From the sequence record OR896832.1: 64,000 nt of DNA, one strand, 5' to 3'. The notes under the pieces are model-generated. The model saw only the letters and a list, made by a program, of their open reading frames with translations. It had not been told where the DNA came from and ran no database searches. Position 1 is the first letter of the stretch. Each line of letters begins with the position of its first letter. The position numbers and the translations under genes are program-made. This DNA is from Escherichia phage GoldenSnicker. Positions 752 to 15,577 of this stretch are shown piece by piece.

Positions 752-1012
752 TTAAAAATTCTTGCTATATATGCAAGCCTCATAATCTAGAGGATGACCG
801 CCAATCCTACCAGGCTTAATATTCCAACCGCATCGATATTTGCTGACCATGCTAACCGTTTCGGTTCTTAGAGCATTTCTTTGCAAATCATACCCCCTAA
901 ATTCTTGTCTATAAGGACAGTCCGCTTTGCAAGTTGGTGGTTCTACGTCATTTAGCGGGTCAGAAGCAGTTGGCTTTATTATCAATTCTTTGTTTGCAAT
1001 AATCATAAGCAC
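752..1012 (-). CDS. hypothetical protein (start uncertain)
   Basis: 86-aa ORF, Cys-rich; overlaps 960-1154, so true start is probably internal. Confidence 0.3.
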   Translation of the reverse strand: MLMIIANKELIIKPTASDPLNDVEPPTCKADCPYRQEFRGYDLQRNALRTETVSMVSKYRCGWNIKPGRIGGHPLDYEACIYSKNF

Positions 1013-1154
1013 ATCTCATTGAAGGCAATTTAACATCTTCGCAATAAGTGTTGAATCCGTCAAATACAATCACTTCATATTTGACTCCATCGGCGATAGC
1101 TTTTACTTTATACCATCCATGCTTGTATAAAATCTTCATCTTCATTTCCCTCAA
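960..1154 (-). CDS. hypothetical small early protein
   Basis: 64-aa ORF downstream of promoter cassette 1173-1201; overlaps ORF 752-1012 in another frame. Confidence 0.4.
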   Translation of the reverse strand: MREMKMKILYKHGWYKVKAIADGVKYEVIVFDGFNTYCEDVKLPSMRCAYDYCKQRIDNKANCF

Positions 1155-1172
1155 TCTCGTTTCGATGTGTGT

Positions 1173-1201
1173 ATTATGCTATAGGCGTGATCTGGTGTCA
1201 A
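1173..1201 (-). promoter_or_regulatory. sigma70-type early promoter (PeSL-like cassette)
   Basis: TTGACA (1201..1196), 17 bp, CATAAT (1178..1173); part of a ~95-bp promoter+terminator repeat shared with 640-750. Confidence 0.6.
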
Positions 1202-1224
1202 TGCCTTTTTTAAAATTTTATGAA

Positions 1225-1250
1225 ATAAAAAAGCCGACACTAAGGTCGGC
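1225..1250 (-). terminator. rho-independent terminator
   Basis: same gccgac/gtcggc hairpin plus U-run as at 721-747, downstream of ORF 1259-1567. Confidence 0.6.
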
Positions 1251-1258
1251 TAATAAAA

Positions 1259-1567
1259 TCATTTAGACAAATAATCATTCTGTGCAATCCGGTCAGCATG
1301 TTCCGGCGTTACGTCAATTGCAATCACTTTAACGCGTGCTTTCTTGCGACCTGGGTTTTCTCGTAACCAGTGCTCATGACCGTGAACATTTTTATACTGC
1401 GATGCTTCTTCGAAGGTACGGATCGGACCTGGGTAATCAGCGTAAAGGATCTCTAGATCTTCAGTGATGTAAAAATATACATCGTAATTGCTGTTCTCTA
1501 GCTTAAGCAGAGACTTTCGGAACATTGGGAGATTTTCGCGGGTAAATTCAAAGATATTATCTTTCAT
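1259..1567 (-). CDS. hypothetical protein, member of HxHW/AxDV paralog family
   Basis: 102 aa; shares YxYI(T/D)EDL, HGHEHW and VIAIDV motifs with five neighbouring ORFs. Confidence 0.55.
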   Translation of the reverse strand: MKDNIFEFTRENLPMFRKSLLKLENSNYDVYFYITEDLEILYADYPGPIRTFEEASQYKNVHGHEHWLRENPGRKKARVKVIAIDVTPEHADRIAQNDYLSK

Positions 1568-1618
1568 AGTATTATCCTCAATAGTTGGATGAAAAGGGGG
1601 GGCTTAATGCCCCGTATA

Positions 1619-1906
1619 TTAAAACAGTCCTTCCTGTACACCGTAGTAGAGTTCATCGCTGATAATTTCATTAATGCGACGGTGTGCATATTCCTGATTT
1701 GCGAAGTTATCAGCAAGTTCTACTTTAGTTTCGCCGTCATGAGTCCATTTAGTGATAACTTTACCATCTGCAAATTTGAAGTTGAACTCTTTAGCTACTG
1801 CATCGCGTACCAGACGTGCGAACTTGTTGTTACGGATTGCATTATCGGTTTCGTGTGCAGCGTGAGCGAATTTGTTAACTTTCAGAGTGATAGTAATGTA
1901 TGCCAT
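1619..1906 (-). CDS. hypothetical small early protein
   Basis: 95-aa ORF; promoter cassette 1953-1981 upstream. Confidence 0.45.
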   Translation of the reverse strand: MAYITITLKVNKFAHAAHETDNAIRNNKFARLVRDAVAKEFNFKFADGKVITKWTHDGETKVELADNFANQEYAHRRINEIISDELYYGVQEGLF

Positions 1907-1952
1907 AATTTGATTCTCCTAGTTAGAAAGTGTATCTCGTTTCGATGGGTGT

Positions 1953-1981
1953 ATTATGCTATACACCCGATCTTATGTCAA
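1953..1981 (-). promoter_or_regulatory. sigma70-type early promoter (PeSL-like cassette)
   Basis: TTGACA (1981..1976), 17 bp, CATAAT (1958..1953). Confidence 0.55.
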
Positions 1982-1987
1982 CACTTT

Positions 1988-2281
1988 TTATAAAATAATT
2001 TTTTGATATTTTTCTATGATGTTCGTGTAAGTCACATCAACCGCTAGCACCGTTGCTTCGAATCCACCGTTTAGCCAATGGCTATGGTCATGGTCGTGAA
2101 AGAAACCAAGACCAGTACGAAGACCTTCTTTATATTCGGCGCGTACATTTAGATCATCATCGATAAACAGATAAAACCATGAATTTTTACTAGGATTGAT
2201 GATACAACCTTTCAGATTAGGGAGAATATCACGACTAAGAATAAACTTATCACCTACTTTGAACATAATATTAGTCCTCAC
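1988..2281 (-). CDS. hypothetical protein, HxHW/AxDV paralog family
   Basis: 97 aa; HDHDHSHW and VLAVDV motifs. Confidence 0.55.
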   Translation of the reverse strand: MRTNIMFKVGDKFILSRDILPNLKGCIINPSKNSWFYLFIDDDLNVRAEYKEGLRTGLGFFHDHDHSHWLNGGFEATVLAVDVTYTNIIEKYQKIIL

Positions 2282-2591
2282 TTATAAGGTCAAACCAATT
2301 GTTTTTCGCATAATGCTTAATGCGTGCTTGATCTGCTTCCGATGGTGATAGATTCCATGCAACCACTACAACTTCTGACGCATCGTCATCCGTTTCTGAT
2401 ACCCAATGATTGTGATTCATACAGTTATTTGCTATCGAGTGAGCAAATGATTTCATCACTGGAGACGTATAATCGTAGTAACGGATTTTCAGATTTTCAT
2501 CAACGTACAAATAGATCGTATAAGGTTTATATTCAGTAACCAGTAACAGACAGTTACGCAATTCTGGGAAAATCTTTTTAGTTAATTTCAT
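2271..2591 (-). CDS. hypothetical protein, HxHW/AxDV paralog family (start trimmed to internal Met)
   Basis: YLYVDENL and NHNHW motifs; listed ORF extends to 2672 but overlaps the next gene, so an internal start is preferred. Confidence 0.45.
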   Translation of the reverse strand: MKLTKKIFPELRNCLLLVTEYKPYTIYLYVDENLKIRYYDYTSPVMKSFAHSIANNCMNHNHWVSETDDDASEVVVVAWNLSPSEADQARIKHYAKNNWFDLISED

Positions 2592-2592
2592 T

Positions 2593-2832
2593 TTATAATC
2601 CTCGGTCTCGGCTATAGTACACGGTACGCCATACAATTTCATGTTTCGTGTCGCTCCAGCACACGATCTCATTTACTCTTAAATCTTTGTTATCAACAAA
2701 AGATGAACATTGTGACGCTTCTTTCATCATTTTATCTGCTGTTTTCTCATCAAATACAGCACAGATTTCTTTATACACTCGATAATCTTTGAATTGACTC
2801 TGGATACCCATAATTAACACCATTCCAACCAA
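2593..2832 (-). CDS. hypothetical protein, second small paralog pair
   Basis: 79 aa; SQFKDYRVYKEI...KMMKEASQC resembles neighbour 2771-3028 (SKFKDYKAYQQI...KMMEDASKC). Confidence 0.45.
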   Translation of the reverse strand: MVGMVLIMGIQSQFKDYRVYKEICAVFDEKTADKMMKEASQCSSFVDNKDLRVNEIVCWSDTKHEIVWRTVYYSRDRGL

Positions 2833-3028
2833 TTGTTTTTGAGAAAACGTTTATCCACTGTTGAGTGTAGCATGTTTCTTTCCATGATACAATACGAGTA
2901 GAATAATGGTTTTTGTTTCCAGAAAAGGACGGACATTTTGATGCATCTTCCATCATCTTTTCGGCGAACTCTGGTGCGTATACTCGCAGGATCTGTTGAT
3001 ATGCTTTATAATCTTTAAATTTGCTCAT
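2771..3028 (-). CDS. hypothetical protein, second small paralog pair
   Basis: 85 aa; paralog of 2593-2832. Confidence 0.45.
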   Translation of the reverse strand: MSKFKDYKAYQQILRVYAPEFAEKMMEDASKCPSFSGNKNHYSTRIVSWKETCYTQQWINVFSKTIGWNGVNYGYPESIQRLSSV

Positions 3029-3293
3029 AATTGTTAACTACCTTATCAGCTTCTTTTATTGTTTTTACATCAACTGCGATAATCCGTAAAGGTTCGTCGA
3101 AGGTCCACCAATGATCGTGATTATCAGCTTGTGATTTATCACCAAAGGAATCACGAATATCATTTTTACATTTATAGCTAATGTGACCGTCATAGTCAAT
3201 ATAAAGGTAATTATCGAAAATCGGCGTTTTTAAGATCATACCGAAAAATCTTTCTTTGTGTGTCTTATCCAGCGTTGCAGTAATTCGCATCAT
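3015..3293 (-). CDS. hypothetical protein, HxHW/AxDV paralog family
   Basis: 92 aa; YLYIDYDG, DNHDHWW, IIAVDV motifs. Confidence 0.55.
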   Translation of the reverse strand: MMRITATLDKTHKERFFGMILKTPIFDNYLYIDYDGHISYKCKNDIRDSFGDKSQADNHDHWWTFDEPLRIIAVDVKTIKEADKVVNNYEQI

Positions 3294-3517
3294 AATATAT
3301 TCCTCTTAGAAAGGGATGGTCATTTCTTGAGCTTGTACATTTTCGTTAGGATTAAACTTCATCCAACCGATATTGTCTACCAGTATATGCACATTTTTAT
3401 CATATCCTACGTGGGTAGTCAATACTGTATGTGCTTTACCTTCAATGATGAGTTCCATGTACTTCTGAACTTCGATAGCTTTCATTTTGATTCTCCGTTT
3501 GTTGTCTTGATGGGAGT

Positions 3518-3546
3518 ATCTTACTACTCCCTTTAATCATTGTCAA
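3518..3546 (-). promoter_or_regulatory. sigma70-type early promoter with inverted repeat
   Basis: TTGACA (3546..3541), 17 bp, TAAGAT; inverted repeat gggagta/tactccc spans the -10. Confidence 0.45.
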
Positions 3547-3549
3547 CTA

Positions 3550-3753
3550 TTATTTGTTAATTTCCGGTGCGTTGCTTGGATAGTAACCTTCTTTAACACC
3601 CAGATATTTTGCAACCATTCCGGTGATCTTCTGTGCTACTACGATATCGAATTTCAGGTAGTCTTCACCGTGGTTTGCTACAATGTATGCTTCGCATTCT
3701 GCTTTAGTCTGGAACATTTTTGATTCTCCTATATCTCGTTGGTATGTGTGCAT
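3550..3753 (-). CDS. hypothetical small early protein
   Basis: 67-aa ORF with promoter 3752-3781 upstream. Confidence 0.45.
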   Translation of the reverse strand: MHTYQRDIGESKMFQTKAECEAYIVANHGEDYLKFDIVVAQKITGMVAKYLGVKEGYYPSNAPEINK

Positions 3754-3781
3754 TATAGGGGATCACCGATCCCCTGTCAAC
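3752..3781 (-). promoter_or_regulatory. sigma70-type early promoter with palindromic spacer
   Basis: TTGACA (3781..3776), spacer containing ggggatcaccgatcccc inverted repeat, TATAAT (3757..3752). Confidence 0.55.
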
Positions 3782-3785
3782 AACT

Positions 3786-4136
3786 TTATAATGCTTTATA
3801 TGCGTATTTCATAAATTTGTCTGCCACTTCATTGGCATGTTCAGATTCTACGCCTGATTCGAGAACAATAGCTAGGTCGGTTTCGTCATTCCCGCCGTAC
3901 CAATGATTTGATGTTCGATTTTTTTCAATTGGAAATTGGTCACTTTTATCTGTGCGACAAAATACATCTAAATGCTCGTCGATGTAAAAGATCCAATCTT
4001 CATAAAGAATAACGGTATTAGCCAGATTTTTATTGCCTTCAACGAAAGGTTCGGCTACAAACAAATTAGTATGTTCCATAGTATTTTCCTCAAAATTATA
4101 CAGCTTCGTAAACTTCCCAATGTCCAACACCAGCAC
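3786..4136 (-). CDS. hypothetical protein, HxHW/AxDV paralog family (divergent)
   Basis: 116 aa; IFYIDEHL, SNHW, AIVLESGV motifs. Confidence 0.45.
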   Translation of the reverse strand: MLVLDIGKFTKLYNFEENTMEHTNLFVAEPFVEGNKNLANTVILYEDWIFYIDEHLDVFCRTDKSDQFPIEKNRTSNHWYGGNDETDLAIVLESGVESEHANEVADKFMKYAYKAL

Positions 4137-4287
4137 GCTTAACGAAAAGGTTTTCTTTTATGTTATTCATAAACGTCTGGATGGATTTAATGCGGTTTGA
4201 AGGTTTCCATTCTTCGTTGGCATTGCGTCGATACATCATAACATTACCAGTTCGCTTATATTCAGCAACCATTTTAAGACCACACAT
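4096..4287 (-). CDS. hypothetical small protein
   Basis: 63-aa ORF; overlaps 3786-4136 by about 40 nt. Confidence 0.35.
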   Translation of the reverse strand: MCGLKMVAEYKRTGNVMMYRRNANEEWKPSNRIKSIQTFMNNIKENLFVKRAGVGHWEVYEAV

Positions 4288-4343
4288 AATATTATCCTCA
4301 ATTTGTGGGAGAGTATTACCCTCCCGATTATTGTTATACTACA

Positions 4344-4646
4344 TTACGCAAAATTGCGTGTCAATGCTTCTTTTGCTGTTCCGCTAAGATTCTCGATCTC
4401 TCCTGGCATAACATCAACCGCAAGAACTTCTACAACATCCTCTGATCCTAACCAGTGAGTATGACCTTTGTAGAACTTGATATCCCATTTAACGCTATCG
4501 CTAGCCCACCACACATCACCGTCGATAAAGTTGATGTAAAGCACACTACGCCACATTGAATTAATTACTTTCAATACTGCGCCTTTCATCTCTTCCACGG
4601 TGTGGTCTTCCATTTTGAAGACCTCGCCTACCTTAACTTTTGCCAT
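4344..4646 (-). CDS. hypothetical protein, HxHW/AxDV paralog family
   Basis: 100 aa; YINFIDGD, KGHTHW, VLAVDV motifs. Confidence 0.55.
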   Translation of the reverse strand: MAKVKVGEVFKMEDHTVEEMKGAVLKVINSMWRSVLYINFIDGDVWWASDSVKWDIKFYKGHTHWLGSEDVVEVLAVDVMPGEIENLSGTAKEALTRNFA

Positions 4647-4663
4647 TTAGTCACCTCTCTTTA

Positions 4664-4843
4664 TTACATAACAATCACGCCAGCCGTTGAAAGTTGATGT
4701 TTCAACTGAGCATTTTCTGCTACCGTCAAATCAATGATTTCTTGTGACGCTGCAATCATATAGCCATTGGTGATATTGTTTTGCATCAGTTCAATGGTCT
4801 CTTCGTTGTAGCGGATTTTAGCGATGATTTCGTTGAAGTTCAT
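4664..4843 (-). CDS. hypothetical small protein (start at internal ATG)
   Basis: listed ORF 4664-4909 begins by reading through the promoter cassette; ATG at 4843..4841 follows a GGAGA SD. Confidence 0.45.
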   Translation of the reverse strand: MNFNEIIAKIRYNEETIELMQNNITNGYMIAASQEIIDLTVAENAQLKHQLSTAGVIVM

Positions 4844-4877
4844 AATTGATTCTCCTAGTTCGTTTCGGTATGTGTGT

Positions 4878-4906
4878 AGTATAGGGGATCGGTGATCCCC
4901 TGTCAA
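4878..4906 (-). promoter_or_regulatory. sigma70-type early promoter with palindromic spacer
   Basis: TTGACA (4906..4901), 17-bp spacer ggggatcggtgatcccc, TATACT (4883..4878). Confidence 0.55.
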
Positions 4907-4919
4907 CAACTTTTTTGAA

Positions 4920-5264
4920 TTATTTTTTCATGAGCTTAATGGCTTCTTCCATAGCCAACACATTTCGATAGTTAGGGTATCTTGTTAGATCGTCATACAT
5001 TCGCTTAAGGGTGGAAACTTCCTCAAACTCTGGGTTTTCAAGATACAATTGAACGAATTGTTTCTCTACCATCTCTGCTTTTAGCTTGTCTGCTTGTTCC
5101 TGTTCATATGATTTAGTTGGACCCAACACCAACAAAATGATAAAGGTGATCAACGGGCTAATGATCAACGATAGGAGAACATAACCGATAACGCTACGGT
5201 TTAAACGGCTTGCGTACATGCCTACCAGGAAAACAAAAAGGATATAGATAAACAGAAAGAACAT
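4920..5264 (-). CDS. small membrane protein
   Basis: 114 aa with two N-terminal hydrophobic segments and a charged C-terminal tail. Confidence 0.5.
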   Translation of the reverse strand: MFFLFIYILFVFLVGMYASRLNRSVIGYVLLSLIISPLITFIILLVLGPTKSYEQEQADKLKAEMVEKQFVQLYLENPEFEEVSTLKRMYDDLTRYPNYRNVLAMEEAIKLMKK

Positions 5265-5271
5265 ATAATGG

Positions 5272-5745
5272 TTACTCCTTATTTTCGCGCTCGTACTTTT
5301 CGAAATAAAATTCTACTGGCTGGTCGTGGATTGACAGCAAGCCAAAGCGTTTAGCCGCTCGCAACCCCATATTGCGCTGAATGTACTTCTGGAAGTTCTC
5401 TCGTATACACTTACGCCAGTATTCTAAGCCCATACAGCTTTTATAAAGATTGCATTGCACACACGACGGATTCATGTTATCAAGTATATCATGTTCCGGT
5501 TTATGCATTCCTACAACCTTATACTTCCACGATCCATCATCATTACGGGCAATTCGTCCCTTTTCATCATAGACTACTTTTGAGCGTCGCAATACTGGTT
5601 TGATGTGGTCTGCGTGCCAGCGATCCCCTAGTTCCTCGCCACAATAGGCACAACGTCCACCGTATTTCATTTTCAGGATCTGGCGTTGCTCTTTCTTTGA
5701 CAATTTTTTAGGTTTAGGGGCTTTCGCCCCTTCATTATCACACAT
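5272..5745 (-). CDS. HNH endonuclease (free-standing, homing-type)
   Basis: CAYCGEEL...HADHIKP...CVQCN HNH motif; overlaps 3' end of the ligase gene by 8 nt. Confidence 0.65.
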   Translation of the reverse strand: MCDNEGAKAPKPKKLSKKEQRQILKMKYGGRCAYCGEELGDRWHADHIKPVLRRSKVVYDEKGRIARNDDGSWKYKVVGMHKPEHDILDNMNPSCVQCNLYKSCMGLEYWRKCIRENFQKYIQRNMGLRAAKRFGLLSIHDQPVEFYFEKYERENKE

Positions 5746-7234
5746 CGAATACCTCTTTTACTGTATTTGCAGTGGTCTTGTCGTAGCGAATACGTTTGAT
5801 GATCGGGAGAAATAAAGAGAACTCCGGTTCATCTTCTTTACGTGATTTGCTGCGGATATACCCGTTGCATGTCATCTCAATGACTTTTCCAATCAGGTTA
5901 TGACGGTCAGCCCATAACATTTCTCGGTCAAGTTCATTTCGACGATCGAACGGAATTACACGTTCGATACCATCATCACCTTTTTCGGTTGTAGTGTCGG
6001 TTAATCCCGATCCGGTGTTAGTCATCATTCGTCCACACGCACTACGGACAGTAAAACCGCCTACCTTATTGGGGTCTTTACTATGCGGATATACATCAAC
6101 AATTTCCGCGTCGAAGTCAATCACTTCTTTAAATTTAACCTGATCTTTACTACGGCGATCTTCAAATACACCATGCAGATTTTTAAGGATAATACCTTCT
6201 AAGCCCATGTTTACATAGCGATGATATACTTCGCGAGCTTCATCGATATTGTTAACTACAGTATTTTCGATTATCTGAACACGAGGATCGTTAAGTTCTT
6301 CAACAATCTGTTTTAGTTCTTCGAATCGATCTTTATATTGCTTCGTTGCTTTCTCGTTTCCGTAATACACATCACGGTCGATAACATCCCAGACAGTGTA
6401 AACAATACATTGGGCTTCTTCTTTTGGAATAGTTCCTTTCAGTGATTTGTTGAGGATACCATTTCCGGTCTGACGATCCGCAACAACGGATTCTTTTACT
6501 GCTTCCGCTACTGGCGTTAATGGTATTTCCTCTTCTTCAAATATCCATGACAGAGTACCATCATAAACGCTCTCAACGAAGTTCTGCGCTGGTGTTTGCG
6601 AAAGGGTAGGCATATATACCAATTCGCCATCTAGAACAATTCCACGGCCTCGTAGACGCTCTAAAACAGAAAACAAATCATCCAGCCACTGGTAGGTATT
6701 ACCTGAACGGGTATAGATTGCTAATGTTTCCCCGTCAATATCAGCCATACCACGAGCGCCATCACTTTTAAGCTGTGCATATGCCGGATATTTGATATTA
6801 GCAATAGCCTTATCAGAATATGACGATGCAAGGTGGCATGGTTGCTGGGGGATCAGTTTCTTCCATACCTTGTTTGCAGTGGTAGCGGAACAACCGCATT
6901 CCAGATCACGATTCAGGACCATCATTGCAACTTTAGCATCATCTTCTGACAAGCAAGTCAGAGTATCGGTAACTAGCTGTAATGCTGCATTACCAGTTAC
7001 TTGACGCGTGGCAAGTTTATTTTTAAAGACCTGCAATGCACCGGATAAAGACAATACAGACGAATAGCGCGATGGTTTATCGTATTTCTTTACGCCAAAC
7101 GTAACCTGTTTGCAATATGCCAGATAAAAGCATTCTTTCAGCGTTTCATTGCTTGCAGATTCTTTCAGAATCTTTTCTTTCAGCGATGTTTTGTCTGTTG
7201 CTGCAAGCTGATTAATGATATTAAGAATTGACAT
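5738..7234 (-). CDS. 30: ATP-dependent DNA ligase
   Basis: colinear with T4 ligase as recalled (KLTGNAA, RDLECG, AQLKADGAR lysine motif, DGELVY). Confidence 0.85.
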   Translation of the reverse strand: MSILNIINQLAATDKTSLKEKILKESASNETLKECFYLAYCKQVTFGVKKYDKPSRYSSVLSLSGALQVFKNKLATRQVTGNAALQLVTDTLTCLSEDDAKVAMMVLNRDLECGCSATTANKVWKKLIPQQPCHLASSYSDKAIANIKYPAYAQLKSDGARGMADIDGETLAIYTRSGNTYQWLDDLFSVLERLRGRGIVLDGELVYMPTLSQTPAQNFVESVYDGTLSWIFEEEEIPLTPVAEAVKESVVADRQTGNGILNKSLKGTIPKEEAQCIVYTVWDVIDRDVYYGNEKATKQYKDRFEELKQIVEELNDPRVQIIENTVVNNIDEAREVYHRYVNMGLEGIILKNLHGVFEDRRSKDQVKFKEVIDFDAEIVDVYPHSKDPNKVGGFTVRSACGRMMTNTGSGLTDTTTEKGDDGIERVIPFDRRNELDREMLWADRHNLIGKVIEMTCNGYIRSKSRKEDEPEFSLFLPIIKRIRYDKTTANTVKEVFDV

Positions 7235-8301: not shown

Positions 8302-8622
8302 TTATTTATAAATTTCGACGATCTGCGCTGGAGTCAGCCCGTCTACATTAATCAGACTATCAAGCCCAAAACTACGGAAACCTTCAACTGCAATTTCATA
8401 TACTGGCAAAGATGTTTCTGATTCTTTACGCGGTTTTTCAACATTAGGAACTAACCACTTTTCGTATGTTTCGAAAGGCATCAGTGCCGGATCTCGCGTG
8501 GCGATCATCTCACGGACAGCACCATCTTTCTTAGTAAACTGCAAAGAGTGAGTACCGACCGAAAACATTTTCTTTAGTGCTTCACGAAGTGCGATATTAT
8601 CAACTTGTTCAGTCATTATCAA
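8302..8622 (-). CDS. hypothetical protein
   Basis: 106-aa ORF between gp31 and cd. Confidence 0.4.
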   Translation of the reverse strand: MIMTEQVDNIALREALKKMFSVGTHSLQFTKKDGAVREMIATRDPALMPFETYEKWLVPNVEKPRKESETSLPVYEIAVEGFRSFGLDSLINVDGLTPAQIVEIYK

Positions 8623-9115
8623 TACCCTTCAAATCAGTCAATAATGCTTTTGGAATACGCGTGATTGTAATATCTGCATTATTCAGAATATCAGCCCAAT
8701 CACGCCCACCATTTCGATCATATGTGTCGCAATAGTATAGATGTTTAATACCACTGTTTGCAATTGCTTTAGCGCAATCTGGACACGGTGAAGCAGTACA
8801 CCACATACTAGCGCCTTCAATCGATACACCGCTACGGGCAGCAAACAAAATAGCATTTAATTCAGCATGGATCTCGTTTTTCTGTGACCATGCACTATGC
8901 TCTGGTCGTTTTTCTGGGATCATTTTGCCGTCATCATCCAGCCAACCGTTTTTATGTGCATGACAGCTACAATTTACTTGCCCTGCTGGAGTTCCGTTAA
9001 ATCCAGTAGAAATGATTCGCCCGTCTTTTTCGATCAGTGCGCCTACCTTCCACGAAACACATTTAGAGTTCTTTGCGATCAGATAGGCGATCTGCATGTA
9101 AGTTTGTGACAACAT
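8609..9115 (-). CDS. cd: dCMP deaminase
   Basis: HAELNAI and PCPDCA zinc-binding deaminase motifs; 168 aa. Confidence 0.85.
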   Translation of the reverse strand: MLSQTYMQIAYLIAKNSKCVSWKVGALIEKDGRIISTGFNGTPAGQVNCSCHAHKNGWLDDDGKMIPEKRPEHSAWSQKNEIHAELNAILFAARSGVSIEGASMWCTASPCPDCAKAIANSGIKHLYYCDTYDRNGGRDWADILNNADITITRIPKALLTDLKGIDND

Positions 9116-9136
9116 AATATAATCCTCACATAGTAA

Positions 9137-9340
9137 TTAACCGTATACGCGAAAGTATTCTACTGATCCGTCGCTATACTGTTTTACATTGAATGTATTC
9201 ACACCATGATTATTTCTCATGATGACATATACACTGCGACGTTCATCGCTAAACGGCATAACTGGCGCTGGTTCAATATCAACACTAAAACCACGTTTAG
9301 CAAGTGCTTCGCCTAATTGCTTGAGTTTATCGGTAAACAT
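9137..9340 (-). CDS. hypothetical small protein
   Basis: 67-aa ORF. Confidence 0.4.
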   Translation of the reverse strand: MFTDKLKQLGEALAKRGFSVDIEPAPVMPFSDERRSVYVIMRNNHGVNTFNVKQYSDGSVEYFRVYG

Positions 9341-13943: not shown

Positions 13944-14420
13944 TTAATCATGACCGTGATTTGCAATATCCGCTCGCGTCTTATCTTTGTGATTTCCTAC
14001 GTCAAAGACACGATAACCATTTTCACGCAAAACTTTAATCACTTCTGGGTTATCCTCAAAGACTCCGACAACTTCATCTTTATCAAAGGATTTAATTACC
14101 TCTAATTTTATGTGATAGTCTTTACGGGAATCGGTACGGCCTCTCATAAAGATTTTATCAAAACACACCCCGTTAGAAATTAACCAATCAATTGTTTCCA
14201 TGTAAGCATGTGAACTTCGTCCGGTGAGGATGTAAATCAAATGCCCGTTGTCGGAAAGAGCATTAATAACACGAATTACATCGTAAATGGGGGAATCACC
14301 CCCACATGCCTTGTTATATTCGATCCATGACTCGACTTTATCAAGATTTTCAGTTGGCATCTTTGCTAGTCGATGCGTTGGATCTGTGATCGTAAAATCT
14401 AAATCGACAAAATATATCAT
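13944..14420 (-). CDS. HAD-family phosphatase (PseT phosphatase-domain-like)
   Basis: N-terminal DLDFTIT (DxDxT), TGR, K and DN motifs of HAD fold; 158 aa. Confidence 0.6.
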   Translation of the reverse strand: MIYFVDLDFTITDPTHRLAKMPTENLDKVESWIEYNKACGGDSPIYDVIRVINALSDNGHLIYILTGRSSHAYMETIDWLISNGVCFDKIFMRGRTDSRKDYHIKLEVIKSFDKDEVVGVFEDNPEVIKVLRENGYRVFDVGNHKDKTRADIANHGHD

Positions 14421-15577
14421 AGATATTTCCCGAATCGGTTGTAGTCATCGTCTGTTAAATCGGTATTAACCTGAGATACCAGATACATAATCTCTACTTC
14501 TTGCGCCGCGTTTTGAACTTCGTCAGAGTTCAACCATTTACGCATCCACGGTAACGGATGACGACGAACACTAAACGGGCTTTTCAGTCCGGCAGCGCGC
14601 ATACGGGAATCTGCCAGGTATTCTACATAGGTTTTCAGAATTTCCGGTGACAGGTTAGGAATTGCCCCCATTGCGAATAGGTGGTCTACCCATTCTTTTT
14701 CTTGCTCGACAACATCCAGAAAGATTTTCGTTGCTTCGCCTTCAAGTTCTTCCGCAATCTGTTTCCACTCATCACCATCAACCCCCGTTTGCCATTGACG
14801 AATAATGTATTGTGTTCCTTTTAAGTGAAGTTGTTCATCACGCGCAATAAATTTCATGATCTTCGCGTTACCTTCCAGTAAACCACGTTCGGCAAAGCTG
14901 AAAGTACATGCAAAGGACACATAAAAACGGATTGCTTCCAGTGCATTTACGCAGTGTGCACACAGATAAATCGAAGCCATCAGATCTCGTTTTGTATCTT
15001 CAAAAAATCTTCTTGCATCATCTAATGCTGTCTGGTCGTCTCGTTCTTCCCAATAGCGGAGATCTTCTTTTGCATTCTCATACTTACGAATCCAATAAAG
15101 AACATCATCATAATATTTCCCGATAGATTCCGCTCGCTTCATGATAGCAGGGTTATCGATGATCTGGTCGAACTCACTAGCCGGATCAATGAAACAGTTA
15201 CGCATAATGTGTGTATAGCTTCGGCTATGAATTGTTTCGCTGAATGTCCATGTTTGCAACCATGTATCGAGAGTTGGATCAGATACAATTGGACCAAATG
15301 CTGCGGACGGTGCGCGACCTTGAATAGAATCAAGTAATGTCTGATACTTCAAGTTTTCAGTAAAGAAACGCTTTTCAACGTCACCCATATTAAGATATTG
15401 AATACGGTCGGTTGCAAGTGAAATTTCTTCGGGTCGCCAAAAAAATGACAATTGCTTTTCGATCAGTTCTTCAAATACTTGATGACGCTGAATATCATAG
15501 CGAGCGATACCCAACCCACTACCCAGAAACATTGGTTCGTTCATAATATCAACATGTTCGCGGTTAAATACGCTCAT
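14417..15577 (-). CDS. nrdB: ribonucleotide reductase small subunit
   Basis: 386-aa uninterrupted ORF with class Ia R2 features, position and size as T4 NrdB. Confidence 0.85.
   Translation of the reverse strand: MSVFNREHVDIMNEPMFLGSGLGIARYDIQRHQVFEELIEKQLSFFWRPEEISLATDRIQYLNMGDVEKRFFTENLKYQTLLDSIQGRAPSAAFGPIVSDPTLDTWLQTWTFSETIHSRSYTHIMRNCFIDPASEFDQIIDNPAIMKRAESIGKYYDDVLYWIRKYENAKEDLRYWEERDDQTALDDARRFFEDTKRDLMASIYLCAHCVNALEAIRFYVSFACTFSFAERGLLEGNAKIMKFIARDEQLHLKGTQYIIRQWQTGVDGDEWKQIAEELEGEATKIFLDVVEQEKEWVDHLFAMGAIPNLSPEILKTYVEYLADSRMRAAGLKSPFSVRRHPLPWMRKWLNSDEVQNAAQEVEIMYLVSQVNTDLTDDDYNRFGKYL

What the first reader, a model, noticed from the sequence alone, without database searches (positions are those of the whole stretch)
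1259..4646. Tandem array of six divergent ~100-aa paralogs sharing a His-rich H-x-H-W motif
ORFs 1259-1567, 1988-2281, 2271-2591, 3015-3293, 3786-4136 and 4344-4646 share an aromatic-rich YxYIDEDL-like segment, a His cluster ending in HW (HGHEHW, HDHDHSHW, NHNHW, DNHDHWW, SNHW, KGHTHW) and a hydrophobic A[VI]DV segment about 15 residues later. Several have their own promoter cassette. The layout suggests repeated duplication and divergence; the His cluster could bind a metal.
Basis: seen in the sequence. Interest (0 to 1): 0.55.

Follow-up and report, generated by a model that had tools for sequence, protein, structure and literature searches.

The report
Six-copy orphan gene family in RB49-like phage
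An RB49-like E. coli phage carries six ancient, diverged copies of one small early gene; all keep a His-x-His-Trp motif, they match no known protein or fold, and their function is still unknown.

Summary
The window is a Krischvirus (RB49-like T4-type coliphage). The six minus-strand ORFs are RB49p197, 199, 200, 203, 206 and 208, all annotated as hypothetical.

- **One family.** Leave-one-out profiles, profile-profile comparison and a confident AlphaFold model (pLDDT 84) show one family with 17-31% identity between copies. His-x-His-Trp is nearly invariant, and YxYID, AxDV and EAD segments are conserved.
- **Real genes.** Each copy has a Shine-Dalgarno site and dN/dS of 0.04-0.28 against RB49.
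- **Early expression likely.** The copies sit inside short operons driven by sigma-70 promoter/stem-loop cassettes (PeSLs). One of these cassettes was shown experimentally to be very strong.
- **Dispensable.** Natural relatives carry 2, 4 or 6 copies. The block holding four copies is flanked by direct repeats, and Cognac carries a chimeric repeat at the deletion junction.
- **Narrow range.** The family occurs in 58 of 50,697 phage records, all Krischvirus, plus an uncultured sister lineage. Only 20 representatives match among 1.84 billion proteins.
- **No known relative.** There is no Pfam, NCBIfam or PDB match and no fold match.

Function is inferred, not shown. The most likely reading is small acidic cytoplasmic accessory proteins that share a conserved metal or ligand site flanked by paralogue-specific loops. 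Metal binding is untested. The finding is moderately interesting.

The parts
4344..4646 (-). p6, 100 aa, family member (orthologue of RB49p208); motif KGHTHW; second cistron after ORF 4664-4843
   Evidence: (phrog_16486); SD GAGAGGTGA; dN/dS 0.06 vs RB49
3786..4079 (-). p5, 97 aa, family member (RB49p206); motif SNHW (HNHW in orthologues); most acidic copy (pI 4.5); the subfamily most widespread outside Krischvirus
   Evidence: phrog_15965, profile starts at M20 of the long ORF; p1-p5 E 3.7e-7; dN/dS 0.09
3015..3293 (-). p4, 92 aa, family member (RB49p203); motif NHDHWW
   Evidence: (phrog_15972 plus weak 9345); dN/dS 0.28
2271..2591 (-). p3, 106 aa, family member (RB49p200); motif NHNHW; closest paralogue of p1
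   Evidence: phrog_9345; p1-p3 E 2.4e-13; dN/dS 0.06
1988..2266 (-). p2, 92 aa from ATG 2266, family member (RB49p199); motif HDHDHSHW; its SD lies within the last codons of p3 and its ATG is 4 nt after the p3 stop (close-coupled)
   Evidence: (phrog_17255, profile starts at M6 of the long ORF); dN/dS 0.04
1259..1567 (-). p1, 102 aa, family member (RB49p197); motif HGHEHW; the copy that was modelled
   Evidence: phrog_9345; pLDDT 84.4, pTM 0.80; dN/dS 0.17
4841..4913 (-). PeSL cassette: TTGACA-17-TATACT with an 8-bp GGGGATC stem-loop in the spacer; drives ORF 4664-4843 then p6
   Evidence: (D2); cassette type described in PMC2839356
4306..4364 (-). PeSL-type cassette: TTGACA-17-TAGTAT overlapping the p6 stop, followed by a GGGAGGGT stem-loop; drives ORF 4096-4287 then p5
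   Evidence: z -4.3
3715..3787 (-). PeSL cassette with perfect TTGACA-17-TATAAT consensus, immediately after the p5 stop; counterpart of RB49 'PeSL206/205'; drives ORF 3550-3717
   Evidence: about 13,000 Miller units in a lacZ fusion for the RB49 cassette (PMC2839356)
3510..3546 (-). PeSL-type cassette: TTGACA-17-TAAGAT with a stem-loop overlapping the -10 box; drives ORF 3306-3485, p4, 2771-3028, 2593-2811, p3 and p2
1934..2010 (-). PeSL cassette: TTGACA-17-CATAAT plus stem-loop, immediately after the p2 stop; drives ORF 1619-1906 then p1
   Evidence: (D1)
1599..1613 (-). GC stem-loop followed by a T-rich tail, between ORF 1619-1906 and p1; possible attenuator
1232..1251 (-). Intrinsic-terminator-like hairpin with a T run, 8 nt after the p1 stop; marks the end of the array
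   Evidence: z -4.7
1154..1230 (-). Next PeSL cassette (TTGACA-17-CATAAT), bounding the array on the downstream side
   Evidence: D1, D2, D3
3550..3717 (-). 55-aa ORF (RB49p205-like). In RB49 this gene, its paralogue RB49p191 and their cassettes form direct repeats flanking the 4.3 kb block that holds p4-p1. The second repeat lies beyond the left end of the window.
   Evidence: 172 nt, 86%; chimeric junction in Cognac
1619..4843 (-). Interleaved unrelated small ORFs that lead or separate the family members: 4664-4843, 4096-4287, 3306-3485, 2771-3028, 2593-2811 and 1619-1906
   Evidence: no similarity to each other except the 2593-2811 / 2771-3028 pair

Best explanation
**What is shown.**
- The six ORFs are anciently diverged paralogues of one orphan family specific to Krischvirus. 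The proteins are 92-106 aa, acidic and soluble, with a small alpha/beta domain.
- They sit in the hyperplastic region (RB49 'HPR3') between DNA ligase gene 30 and the Alt ADP-ribosyltransferase.
- They are real genes under purifying selection.
- They lie inside short operons started by sigma-70-type promoter/stem-loop cassettes (PeSLs), so they should be made early by host RNA polymerase.
- They are dispensable. The array shrinks by recombination between repeated cassettes and a pair of paralogous 168-bp genes, giving natural phages with 2, 4 or 6 copies.

**What is inferred.**
- Each protein is a small cytoplasmic binding module.
- A conserved beta-scaffold (YxYID, VLAxDV and a C-terminal EAD helix) presents an invariant His-x-His-Trp element. 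Together with the conserved Asp residues, this element forms the common functional site, either a metal site or a small-ligand site.
- The two loops flanking the motif differ in length and sequence between paralogues, and I take them to set target specificity.
- The most likely role is host takeover or counter-defence. The six copies would be retained because each handles a different variant of one class of host target.
For: - **Family membership and significance:**
- **Same predicted fold in paralogues:** BFVD matches are to Krischvirus proteins only, TM 0.67-0.74. The p1 model has pLDDT 84.
- **Real genes:** SD sites and dN/dS 0.04-0.28.
- **Early promoters:**. The RB49 equivalent of the cassette at 3715-3787 gave about 13,000 Miller units, and a neighbouring stem-loop terminates transcription (PMC2839356). 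There is no late-promoter motif nearer than position 8303.
- **Accessory status and loss mechanism:** copy numbers are 2 in Cognac and FL04, 4 in G5211 and 6 in most genomes. In RB49 a 172-nt direct repeat (86%) plus a PeSL flanks the p4-p1 block, and Cognac has a chimeric junction.
- **Ancient subfamilies:** distant members from an uncultured sister lineage fall into the same subfamilies.
- **Conserved site and variable loops:** H64, H66, W67, A83, D85, V86, A91 and D92 are conserved across subfamilies. Indels and variation concentrate at p1 residues 45-63 and 69-77. Loop pN/pS is 0.29-0.45 against scaffold 0.09-0.23 in four of six subfamilies.
- **Physical properties:** acidic (pI 4.5-6.1), soluble, no conserved Cys.
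Against: - No functional data exist, and no homologue or fold match of known function was found.
- pN/pS never exceeds 1, so there is no sign of an ongoing arms race within subfamilies.
- The His motif lies in the least confident part of the model (pLDDT 65-70). The coordinates could not be inspected, so the clustering of His and Asp is not verified.
- In the window's own p5 the first His is replaced by Ser.
- Early expression is inferred from promoter sequences and from one reporter assay in RB49. No transcriptome was found.
Confidence: 0.5

Rival explanations
1. The proteins are small metal-dependent enzymes or metal-handling proteins. The His-x-His plus Asp/Asp cluster would bind Zn, Fe, Ni or Mn and act catalytically, for example by hydrolysing a nucleotide-type signal or modifying a host molecule, rather than by stoichiometric binding.
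Against: - No Pfam, NCBIfam or PDB sequence match to any metalloenzyme family, and only one stray Cupin_2 hit at E 0.2 among 44 members.
- About 95 aa is small for an enzyme.
- The first His is replaced by Ser or Asp in some members.
- Six retained paralogues with different loops fit a set of binders better than one catalytic activity.
Confidence: 0.2
2. The HxHW element is purely structural, with Trp in the core and His capping a turn. In this reading the paralogues share a scaffold but no common active site. They would be a generic small domain reused for unrelated functions, or they would be largely redundant.
For: Trp and the hydrophobic strand residues are the best conserved positions. 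There is no positive-selection signal. Phages with only two or four copies are viable.
Against: Polar His residues that stay invariant at 17-31% overall identity, and across a sister lineage, usually mark function. The motif lies in a low-confidence loop, not in a core strand. All six copies are kept under purifying selection in most genomes.
Confidence: 0.15
3. The paralogues are subunits that assemble with each other into homo- or hetero-oligomers, and the functional site forms between chains.
For: A natural 203-aa protein (P0089) fuses two family domains in tandem, a 'Rosetta stone' hint of domain-domain interaction. Copies are lost in blocks, p6+p5 or p4-p1, not singly.
Against: Block loss is explained by the positions of the flanking repeats. 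The fusion could not be modelled (pLDDT 34). A sister lineage makes do with two p5-type copies.
Confidence: 0.1
4. They are packaged internal proteins, like T4 IPI-IPIII: polymorphic small proteins injected with the DNA to block host restriction.
For: T4 internal-protein loci are also highly polymorphic and flanked by PeSL-like sequences (PMC2839356 discussion). p5 begins MEHTNLFVAE, which loosely recalls the T4 capsid-targeting leader as I remember it.
Against: - The N-termini are not conserved between paralogues.
- The first strand of the fold starts at residue 5 with pLDDT about 89, so there is no detachable leader.
- Only early sigma-70-type promoters are present, and no late-promoter motif lies in the array.
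- The proteins are acidic, whereas the T4 internal proteins, from my own knowledge, are mostly basic.
Confidence: 0.04
5. The resemblance is due to chance or composition, and some of the ORFs are not genes.
For: p5 alone reaches only E 0.042 in the leave-one-out test.
Against: Orthologues of every copy are conserved across 58 genomes.
Confidence: 0.01

Closest known systems
PeSL-associated ORFans of T4-type hyperplastic regions (Arbiol et al. 2010, PMC2839356; Comeau et al. 2014, PMC4122927)
   Same: - Same genome region (RB49 HPR3).
- Same promoter/stem-loop cassettes, and the same kind of small non-essential genes of unknown function.
- The copy-number changes seen here fit the recombination-between-cassettes model in those papers.
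   Different: - Those papers treat the genes as unrelated orphans and do not describe a paralogous family. The 2010 paper's text contains no 'paralog', and its only 'duplicat' hit refers to duplicate cultures.
- The family members are not the cistrons directly behind a cassette.
- The 4.3 kb deletion also uses a pair of paralogous 168-bp genes as repeats.
Segmental amplification of counter-defence genes in T-even phages (tifA/toxIN, PMC9391042; SegB-driven amplification, PMC13096335)
   Same: Tandem multiplication of a small early accessory gene in a T4-type phage, which is a plausible origin for such an array. A homing-type HNH endonuclease gene lies next to the region (5272-5745).
   Different: Those amplifications are recent, with identical copies selected in the laboratory. 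The copies here are only 17-31% identical and predate the divergence of Krischvirus from a sister lineage. No link to any defence system has been shown.
T4 internal proteins IPI/IPII/IPIII
   Same: A polymorphic small-protein family in a hyperplastic region flanked by PeSL-like sequences, with an accessory anti-host role.
   Different: There is no conserved N-terminal targeting leader and no late promoter. The proteins are acidic, and there is no sequence or fold similarity.
Histidine-triad (HIT) motif proteins
   Same: p1 and p2 show alternating His (HxHxH), superficially like the HIT signature.
   Different: - In HIT proteins the residues between the His are hydrophobic, which is my own knowledge of the motif. 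Here they are polar.
- Only two His are conserved in this family.
PHROG families 9345, 17255, 15972, 15965 and 16486 (all 'unknown function')
   Same: Each window protein matches its PHROG at E 1e-48 to 1e-64.
   Different: PHROGs splits the family into five groups. Only p1 and p3 share one group, and p2 and p4 touch it weakly. The unity of the six is therefore not captured there.

Membership tests
HxHW family defined here (six Krischvirus subfamilies) | Significant match to a profile built from the other members | tested here: met
   Leave-one-out E values run from 2.5e-13 to 1.2e-5 for five copies. p5 scores 0.042 there but hhalign to p1 gives E 3.7e-7.
HxHW family defined here (six Krischvirus subfamilies) | H-x-H-W motif followed about 15 residues later by a hydrophobic strand ending A-x-D-V, and preceded by Y-x-Y-I-D | tested here: met
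   HW is invariant in 44 of 44 sequences and in all 14 distant sequences or domains. The first His is present in at least 90%. p3 (AWNL) and the window's p5 (SNHW, ESGV) deviate in part.
HxHW family defined here (six Krischvirus subfamilies) | Location in the gene 30 (ligase) to alt interval of a T4-type genome | tested here: met
   True in the window, in RB49, in ten other Krischvirus records and in two metagenomic lineages.
PeSL-ORFan cassette (Arbiol et al. 2010) | Sigma-70 consensus promoter plus stem-loop plus SD immediately upstream of the ORF | tested here: not met
   Six such cassettes lie within or bound the array, eight in the first ~5 kb of the window. All of them sit directly upstream of other ORFs. 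The six family members are second or later cistrons.
PeSL-ORFan cassette (Arbiol et al. 2010) | Non-essential gene in a hyperplastic region, gained or lost by recombination between cassettes | tested here: met
   Natural variants have 2, 4 or 6 copies. Direct repeats flank the lost block, and Cognac has a chimeric junction.
Histidine-triad (HIT) superfamily | Match to the Pfam HIT profile, the HIT alpha+beta fold, and H-phi-H-phi-H-phi-phi with hydrophobic phi | tested here: not met
KOW / SH3-like barrel (the label 'KOW2-KOW3 of Spt5' that one source gives to P0070) | Match to the KOW profile, or a fold match to SH3-like barrels | tested here: not met
Metallo-beta-lactamase and cupin HxH metalloproteins | Profile match and the corresponding fold | tested here: not met
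T4 internal proteins | Conserved N-terminal capsid-targeting leader with a prohead-protease site, and expression compatible with packaging | tested here: not met
   N-termini are not conserved and are part of the folded domain. No late-promoter motif is present. The leader consensus is recalled from my own knowledge, and virion content is not testable here.
Metal-binding protein (generic) | Stoichiometric metal bound by the His/Asp cluster | not testable with these tools
   This needs purified protein.

The most novel reading that the evidence does not exclude
The six proteins would be a previously unrecognised fold that works as a panel of counter-defence or host-takeover inhibitors. All copies would use the same His-His-Trp(-Asp) site to hold a metal or a nucleotide-type ligand. 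Paralogue-specific loops would direct each copy to a different host immune or housekeeping target. That would make the array a built-in multi-target toolkit in a T4-type phage.
Probability: 0.2. Interest if true: 0.7.

Novelty: new member of a known kind. Interest (0 to 1): 0.42.

Why it matters
Hyperplastic regions of T4-type phages are where host-range and counter-defence genes accumulate, and most of their genes are still blank.

This array has several features that make it a good experimental target:
- It is an unusually clean case of one orphan domain kept in six ancient versions.
- It has a sharply defined conserved site to mutate.
- It has strong early promoters.
- Natural isolates with two, four and six copies can be compared directly.

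If the function turns out to be counter-defence or a new ligand-binding fold, the family would add a new class of small phage effectors. It would also give a worked example of how promoter/terminator cassettes build and prune gene arrays. If the proteins prove redundant or host-neutral, the array remains an ordinary example of orphan-gene turnover.

Tried and rejected
**Searches for a known relative, all negative**
- Pfam, NCBIfam and PDB-sequence searches, with single proteins and with all 44 members, gave nothing consistent. PROCT appears only in p2-type proteins and below threshold.
- The 'KOW2-KOW3 of Spt5' label on P0070 is not supported by any test.
- A low-stringency HMM scan of 28 kb of T4 around genes 30 and alt found no homologue. 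T4 has only alt.1 in that interval.
- Rfam and tRNA scans of the region found nothing.

**Searches for more family members**
- The single-sequence AlphaFold model of the two-domain fusion P0089 failed, with pLDDT 34.
- P0089 was not found in IMG/VR.
- Viral and metagenome scans with p5-type patterns returned only Krischvirus-like loci.

**Hypotheses tested and dropped**
- A duplicated two-gene module (leader ORF plus family member) is rejected. The leader ORFs are unrelated to each other, and the pairing is not kept in the sister lineage.
- Positive selection in the loops is not seen, since pN/pS stays below 1.
- The promoter-like site at 2293-2265 is rejected as a promoter for p2 because its -10 box abuts the p2 ATG.

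**Literature**
- Searches by accession number and for Krischvirus expression or virion proteomics found nothing on these genes.

Full report
**Identity of the window.** Bases 1000-5000 match 58 phage records at 90-98% identity. All are Krischvirus, the RB49-like T4-type coliphages. In RB49 the finding corresponds to RB49p197, p199, p200, p203, p206 and p208, all 'hypothetical protein'. They lie on the minus strand downstream of DNA ligase gene 30 and an HNH endonuclease gene.

**Checking the observation.** All six ORFs and the quoted motifs are present. The six proteins are 17-31% identical to p1.
- Leave-one-out profiles were searched against every window ORF of 40 aa or more plus 12,000 shuffled decoys. 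They recover p1 (2.5e-13), p3 (3e-10), p2 (1.9e-6), p4 (4e-6) and p6 (1.2e-5). p5 is top-ranked but marginal at 0.042.
- I enriched each copy with its orthologues and compared the subfamily profiles. All 15 pairs align co-linearly, and p5 links to p1 at E 3.7e-7.
- A family HMM finds exactly six members in the 64 kb window.
- H.HW occurs five times in 53,287 aa of six-frame ORFs, always at the homologous site of a family member.

- p2 most likely starts at ATG 2266 and p5 at ATG 4079, based on SD sites, the RB49 annotation and PHROG coverage.
- The window's p5 has SNHW, whereas its orthologues have HNHW.
- p3 and p5 deviate in the AxDV segment.

**Are they genes?** Each has a GAGGA-type Shine-Dalgarno sequence at the right distance. 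dN/dS against RB49 is 0.04-0.28 for all six.

**Transcription anatomy.** The repeated 'promoter cassettes' are the PeSLs of Arbiol et al., a near-consensus sigma-70 promoter with a 7-8 bp GC stem-loop inside or next to it.
- The cassettes lie at about 4913-4841, 4364-4306, 3787-3715, 3546-3510, 2010-1934 and 1230-1154.
- None sits directly in front of a family member. The units read as follows:
  - cassette, ORF 4664-4843, p6
  - cassette, ORF 4096-4287, p5
  - cassette, ORF 3550-3717
  - cassette, ORF 3306-3485, p4, two small ORFs, p3, p2
  - cassette, ORF 1619-1906, a hairpin, p1, terminator 1251-1232
- The leader ORFs are unrelated to each other.
- For RB49, the cassette between ORF206 and ORF205 (window about 3787-3715) gave about 13,000 Miller units in a lacZ fusion. 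A neighbouring PeSL stem-loop terminated as well as rrnB T1 (PMC2839356).
- No T4-type late-promoter motif lies nearer than position 8303.
- Early expression is therefore well grounded but not directly shown. I found no transcriptome.

**Distribution.**
- A profile search of the 5.8-billion-protein collection returned 88 clusters. Every one is at least 69% identical to one of the six copies, so there is no seventh subfamily.
- The exhaustive HMM search of 1.84 billion representatives found only 20 proteins at E of 1e-3 or below. These include about 13 more distant members and a 203-aa natural tandem fusion of two domains.
- The distant members fall into the same subfamilies, with the p5 type the most widespread.
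- tblastn finds the family in 58 of 50,697 phage records, all Krischvirus. A gp30-type ligase is found in 2,274 records.
- A 20 kb metagenomic contig carries two p5-type copies in the same ligase-to-alt interval. Its ligase is only about 72% identical to Krischvirus ligases, so it represents an uncultured sister lineage.
- In T4 that interval contains only alt.1, and no T4 ORF in 28 kb resembles the family even at low stringency.

**Copy-number dynamics.**
- RB49, Phi1, E26, PHB13, UPWr_E1 and a divergent 169 kb metagenomic phage have six copies.
- Cognac and FL04 keep only p6 and p5. G5211 keeps only p4-p1.
- Apparent seventh copies in JSE, TB34 and KMB43 are split ORFs.
- Alleles are replaced in place. 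p5 exists as types about 99% and about 70% identical to the window's copy. JSE, KMB43 and the 169 kb phage have two p3-like genes where p3 and p2 normally sit. Phi1's p4 is 56% identical.
- In RB49 the 4.3 kb block with p4-p1 is flanked by a 172-nt direct repeat (86% identical) plus its PeSL. The repeat is formed by the paralogous 168-bp genes p205 and p191.
- Cognac's single junction copy joins a p205-type cassette to a p191-type gene body. This is the expected product of recombination between the repeats.
- The left repeat lies beyond the left edge of the window.

**The protein.**
- AlphaFold2 with the 44-sequence alignment gives pLDDT 84.4 and pTM 0.80 for p1. The order of elements is strand, short helix, three strands, a long partly helical loop carrying HxHW, a fifth strand and a C-terminal helix. 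The loop is the least confident part at pLDDT 65-70.
- In BFVD only Krischvirus proteins match, at TM 0.67-0.74, which supports a shared fold among the paralogues.
- Across subfamilies the conserved positions are Y31, Y33, I34, D35/D37, H64, H66, W67, V81, A83, D85, V86, A91 and D92.
- Indels and variation concentrate in the two loops flanking HxHW, p1 residues 45-63 and 69-77. This includes a 6-residue insertion polymorphism among p6 orthologues.
- Loop pN/pS is 0.29-0.45 against 0.09-0.23 for the scaffold in four of six subfamilies, and it never exceeds 1.
- The proteins are acidic (pI 4.5-6.1) and hydrophilic, and they have no conserved Cys.

**Interpretation.** Shown: this is one ancient orphan family in a dispensable, early-promoter-driven array that is remodelled by repeat-mediated recombination. 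Inferred: the proteins are small cytoplasmic binding modules with a common His-His-Trp/Asp site, for a metal or a small ligand, and paralogue-specific loops. The most plausible role is host takeover or counter-defence.

The main rivals are:
- a small metal-dependent enzyme
- a purely structural motif
- inter-paralogue oligomers, hinted at by the tandem fusion, whose model failed
- packaged internal proteins, which is unlikely given the non-conserved N-termini that are part of the fold and the lack of late promoters

**Comparison with known systems.**
- The setting matches the PeSL/ORFan hyperplastic regions described for RB49 and phi1 (PMC2839356, PMC4122927). Those papers do not describe this paralogy.
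- PHROGs splits the family into five groups of unknown function.
- Tandem amplification of counter-defence genes in T-even phages (PMC9391042, PMC13096335) is a plausible origin. Those copies are recent and identical, whereas these are ancient and diverged.
- The HIT, KOW, cupin/metallo-beta-lactamase and internal-protein labels all fail their defining tests.

**Verdict.** This is a real and cleanly delimited orphan gene family of a known general kind, with no function assigned. It is moderately interesting, mainly because it is well suited to experiments.

Noticed in passing
window 2593-2811 and 2771-3028 (minus strand): A second, unrelated tandem paralogue pair lies between p4 and p3. The proteins are 72 and 85 aa, they match at phmmer E 1e-14, and the ORFs overlap by about 40 nt. 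They share a KDYxxYxxI...KMMxxASxCxSF segment. The 169 kb relative and the sister lineage each have one copy.
   Followed up: partly
window 3550-3717; L001 73-244 and 4399-4570: The 55-aa gene after p5 (RB49p205-like) has a paralogue (RB49p191) 4.3 kb downstream in RB49. Together with their cassettes the two genes form direct repeats (172 nt, 86%) around the p4-p1 block. Cognac and FL04 have lost exactly that block, and Cognac's junction is chimeric.
   Followed up: yes
window 3757-3775 and 4883-4901: The stem-loops of two promoter cassettes are exact reverse complements of each other over 19 nt. The stem is the same and the loop is flipped (ACC versus GGT), as if the hairpin had been inverted.
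   Followed up: no
window 1565-1582, 4077-4094, 4285-4302: A conserved 18-nt ribosome-binding cassette (TTGAGGATAATAyTATG) is reused in front of p1, p5 and the unrelated ORF 4096-4287.
   Followed up: no
window 5272-5745 (minus strand): An HNH endonuclease gene sits between ligase gene 30 and the hyperplastic region. A 2026 paper reports that a homing endonuclease (SegB) promotes segmental amplification of anti-defence loci in T6 (PMC13096335). Whether this HNH gene affects array dynamics is unknown.
   Followed up: no
window 4920-5264 (minus strand): A 114-aa ORF (RB49p211-like) has a strongly hydrophobic N-terminal half and is a probable membrane protein. No counterpart is annotated in Phi1, FL04 or TB34.
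   Followed up: no
L009 (JSE) 8933-9240; L013 (TB34) about 8398-8700; L008 (KMB43) about 6587-6895: Individual family copies (JSE p1, TB34 p2, KMB43 p5) are split into two ORFs. This reflects either pseudogenisation or sequencing frameshifts.
   Followed up: partly
P0089 (metagenomic protein, 203 aa): This is a natural tandem fusion of two family domains, each with its own HNHW motif. Its genomic context could not be retrieved, and its single-sequence model failed.
   Followed up: partly
L004 about 14003-14521; L010 10634-11152; L013 11469-12185: Beyond the left edge of the window, the same hyperplastic region in relatives carries a DUF262/GmrSD_N-domain gene and a gene annotated as a C-5 cytosine methyltransferase. 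Both are candidates for restriction-related functions near the array.
   Followed up: no
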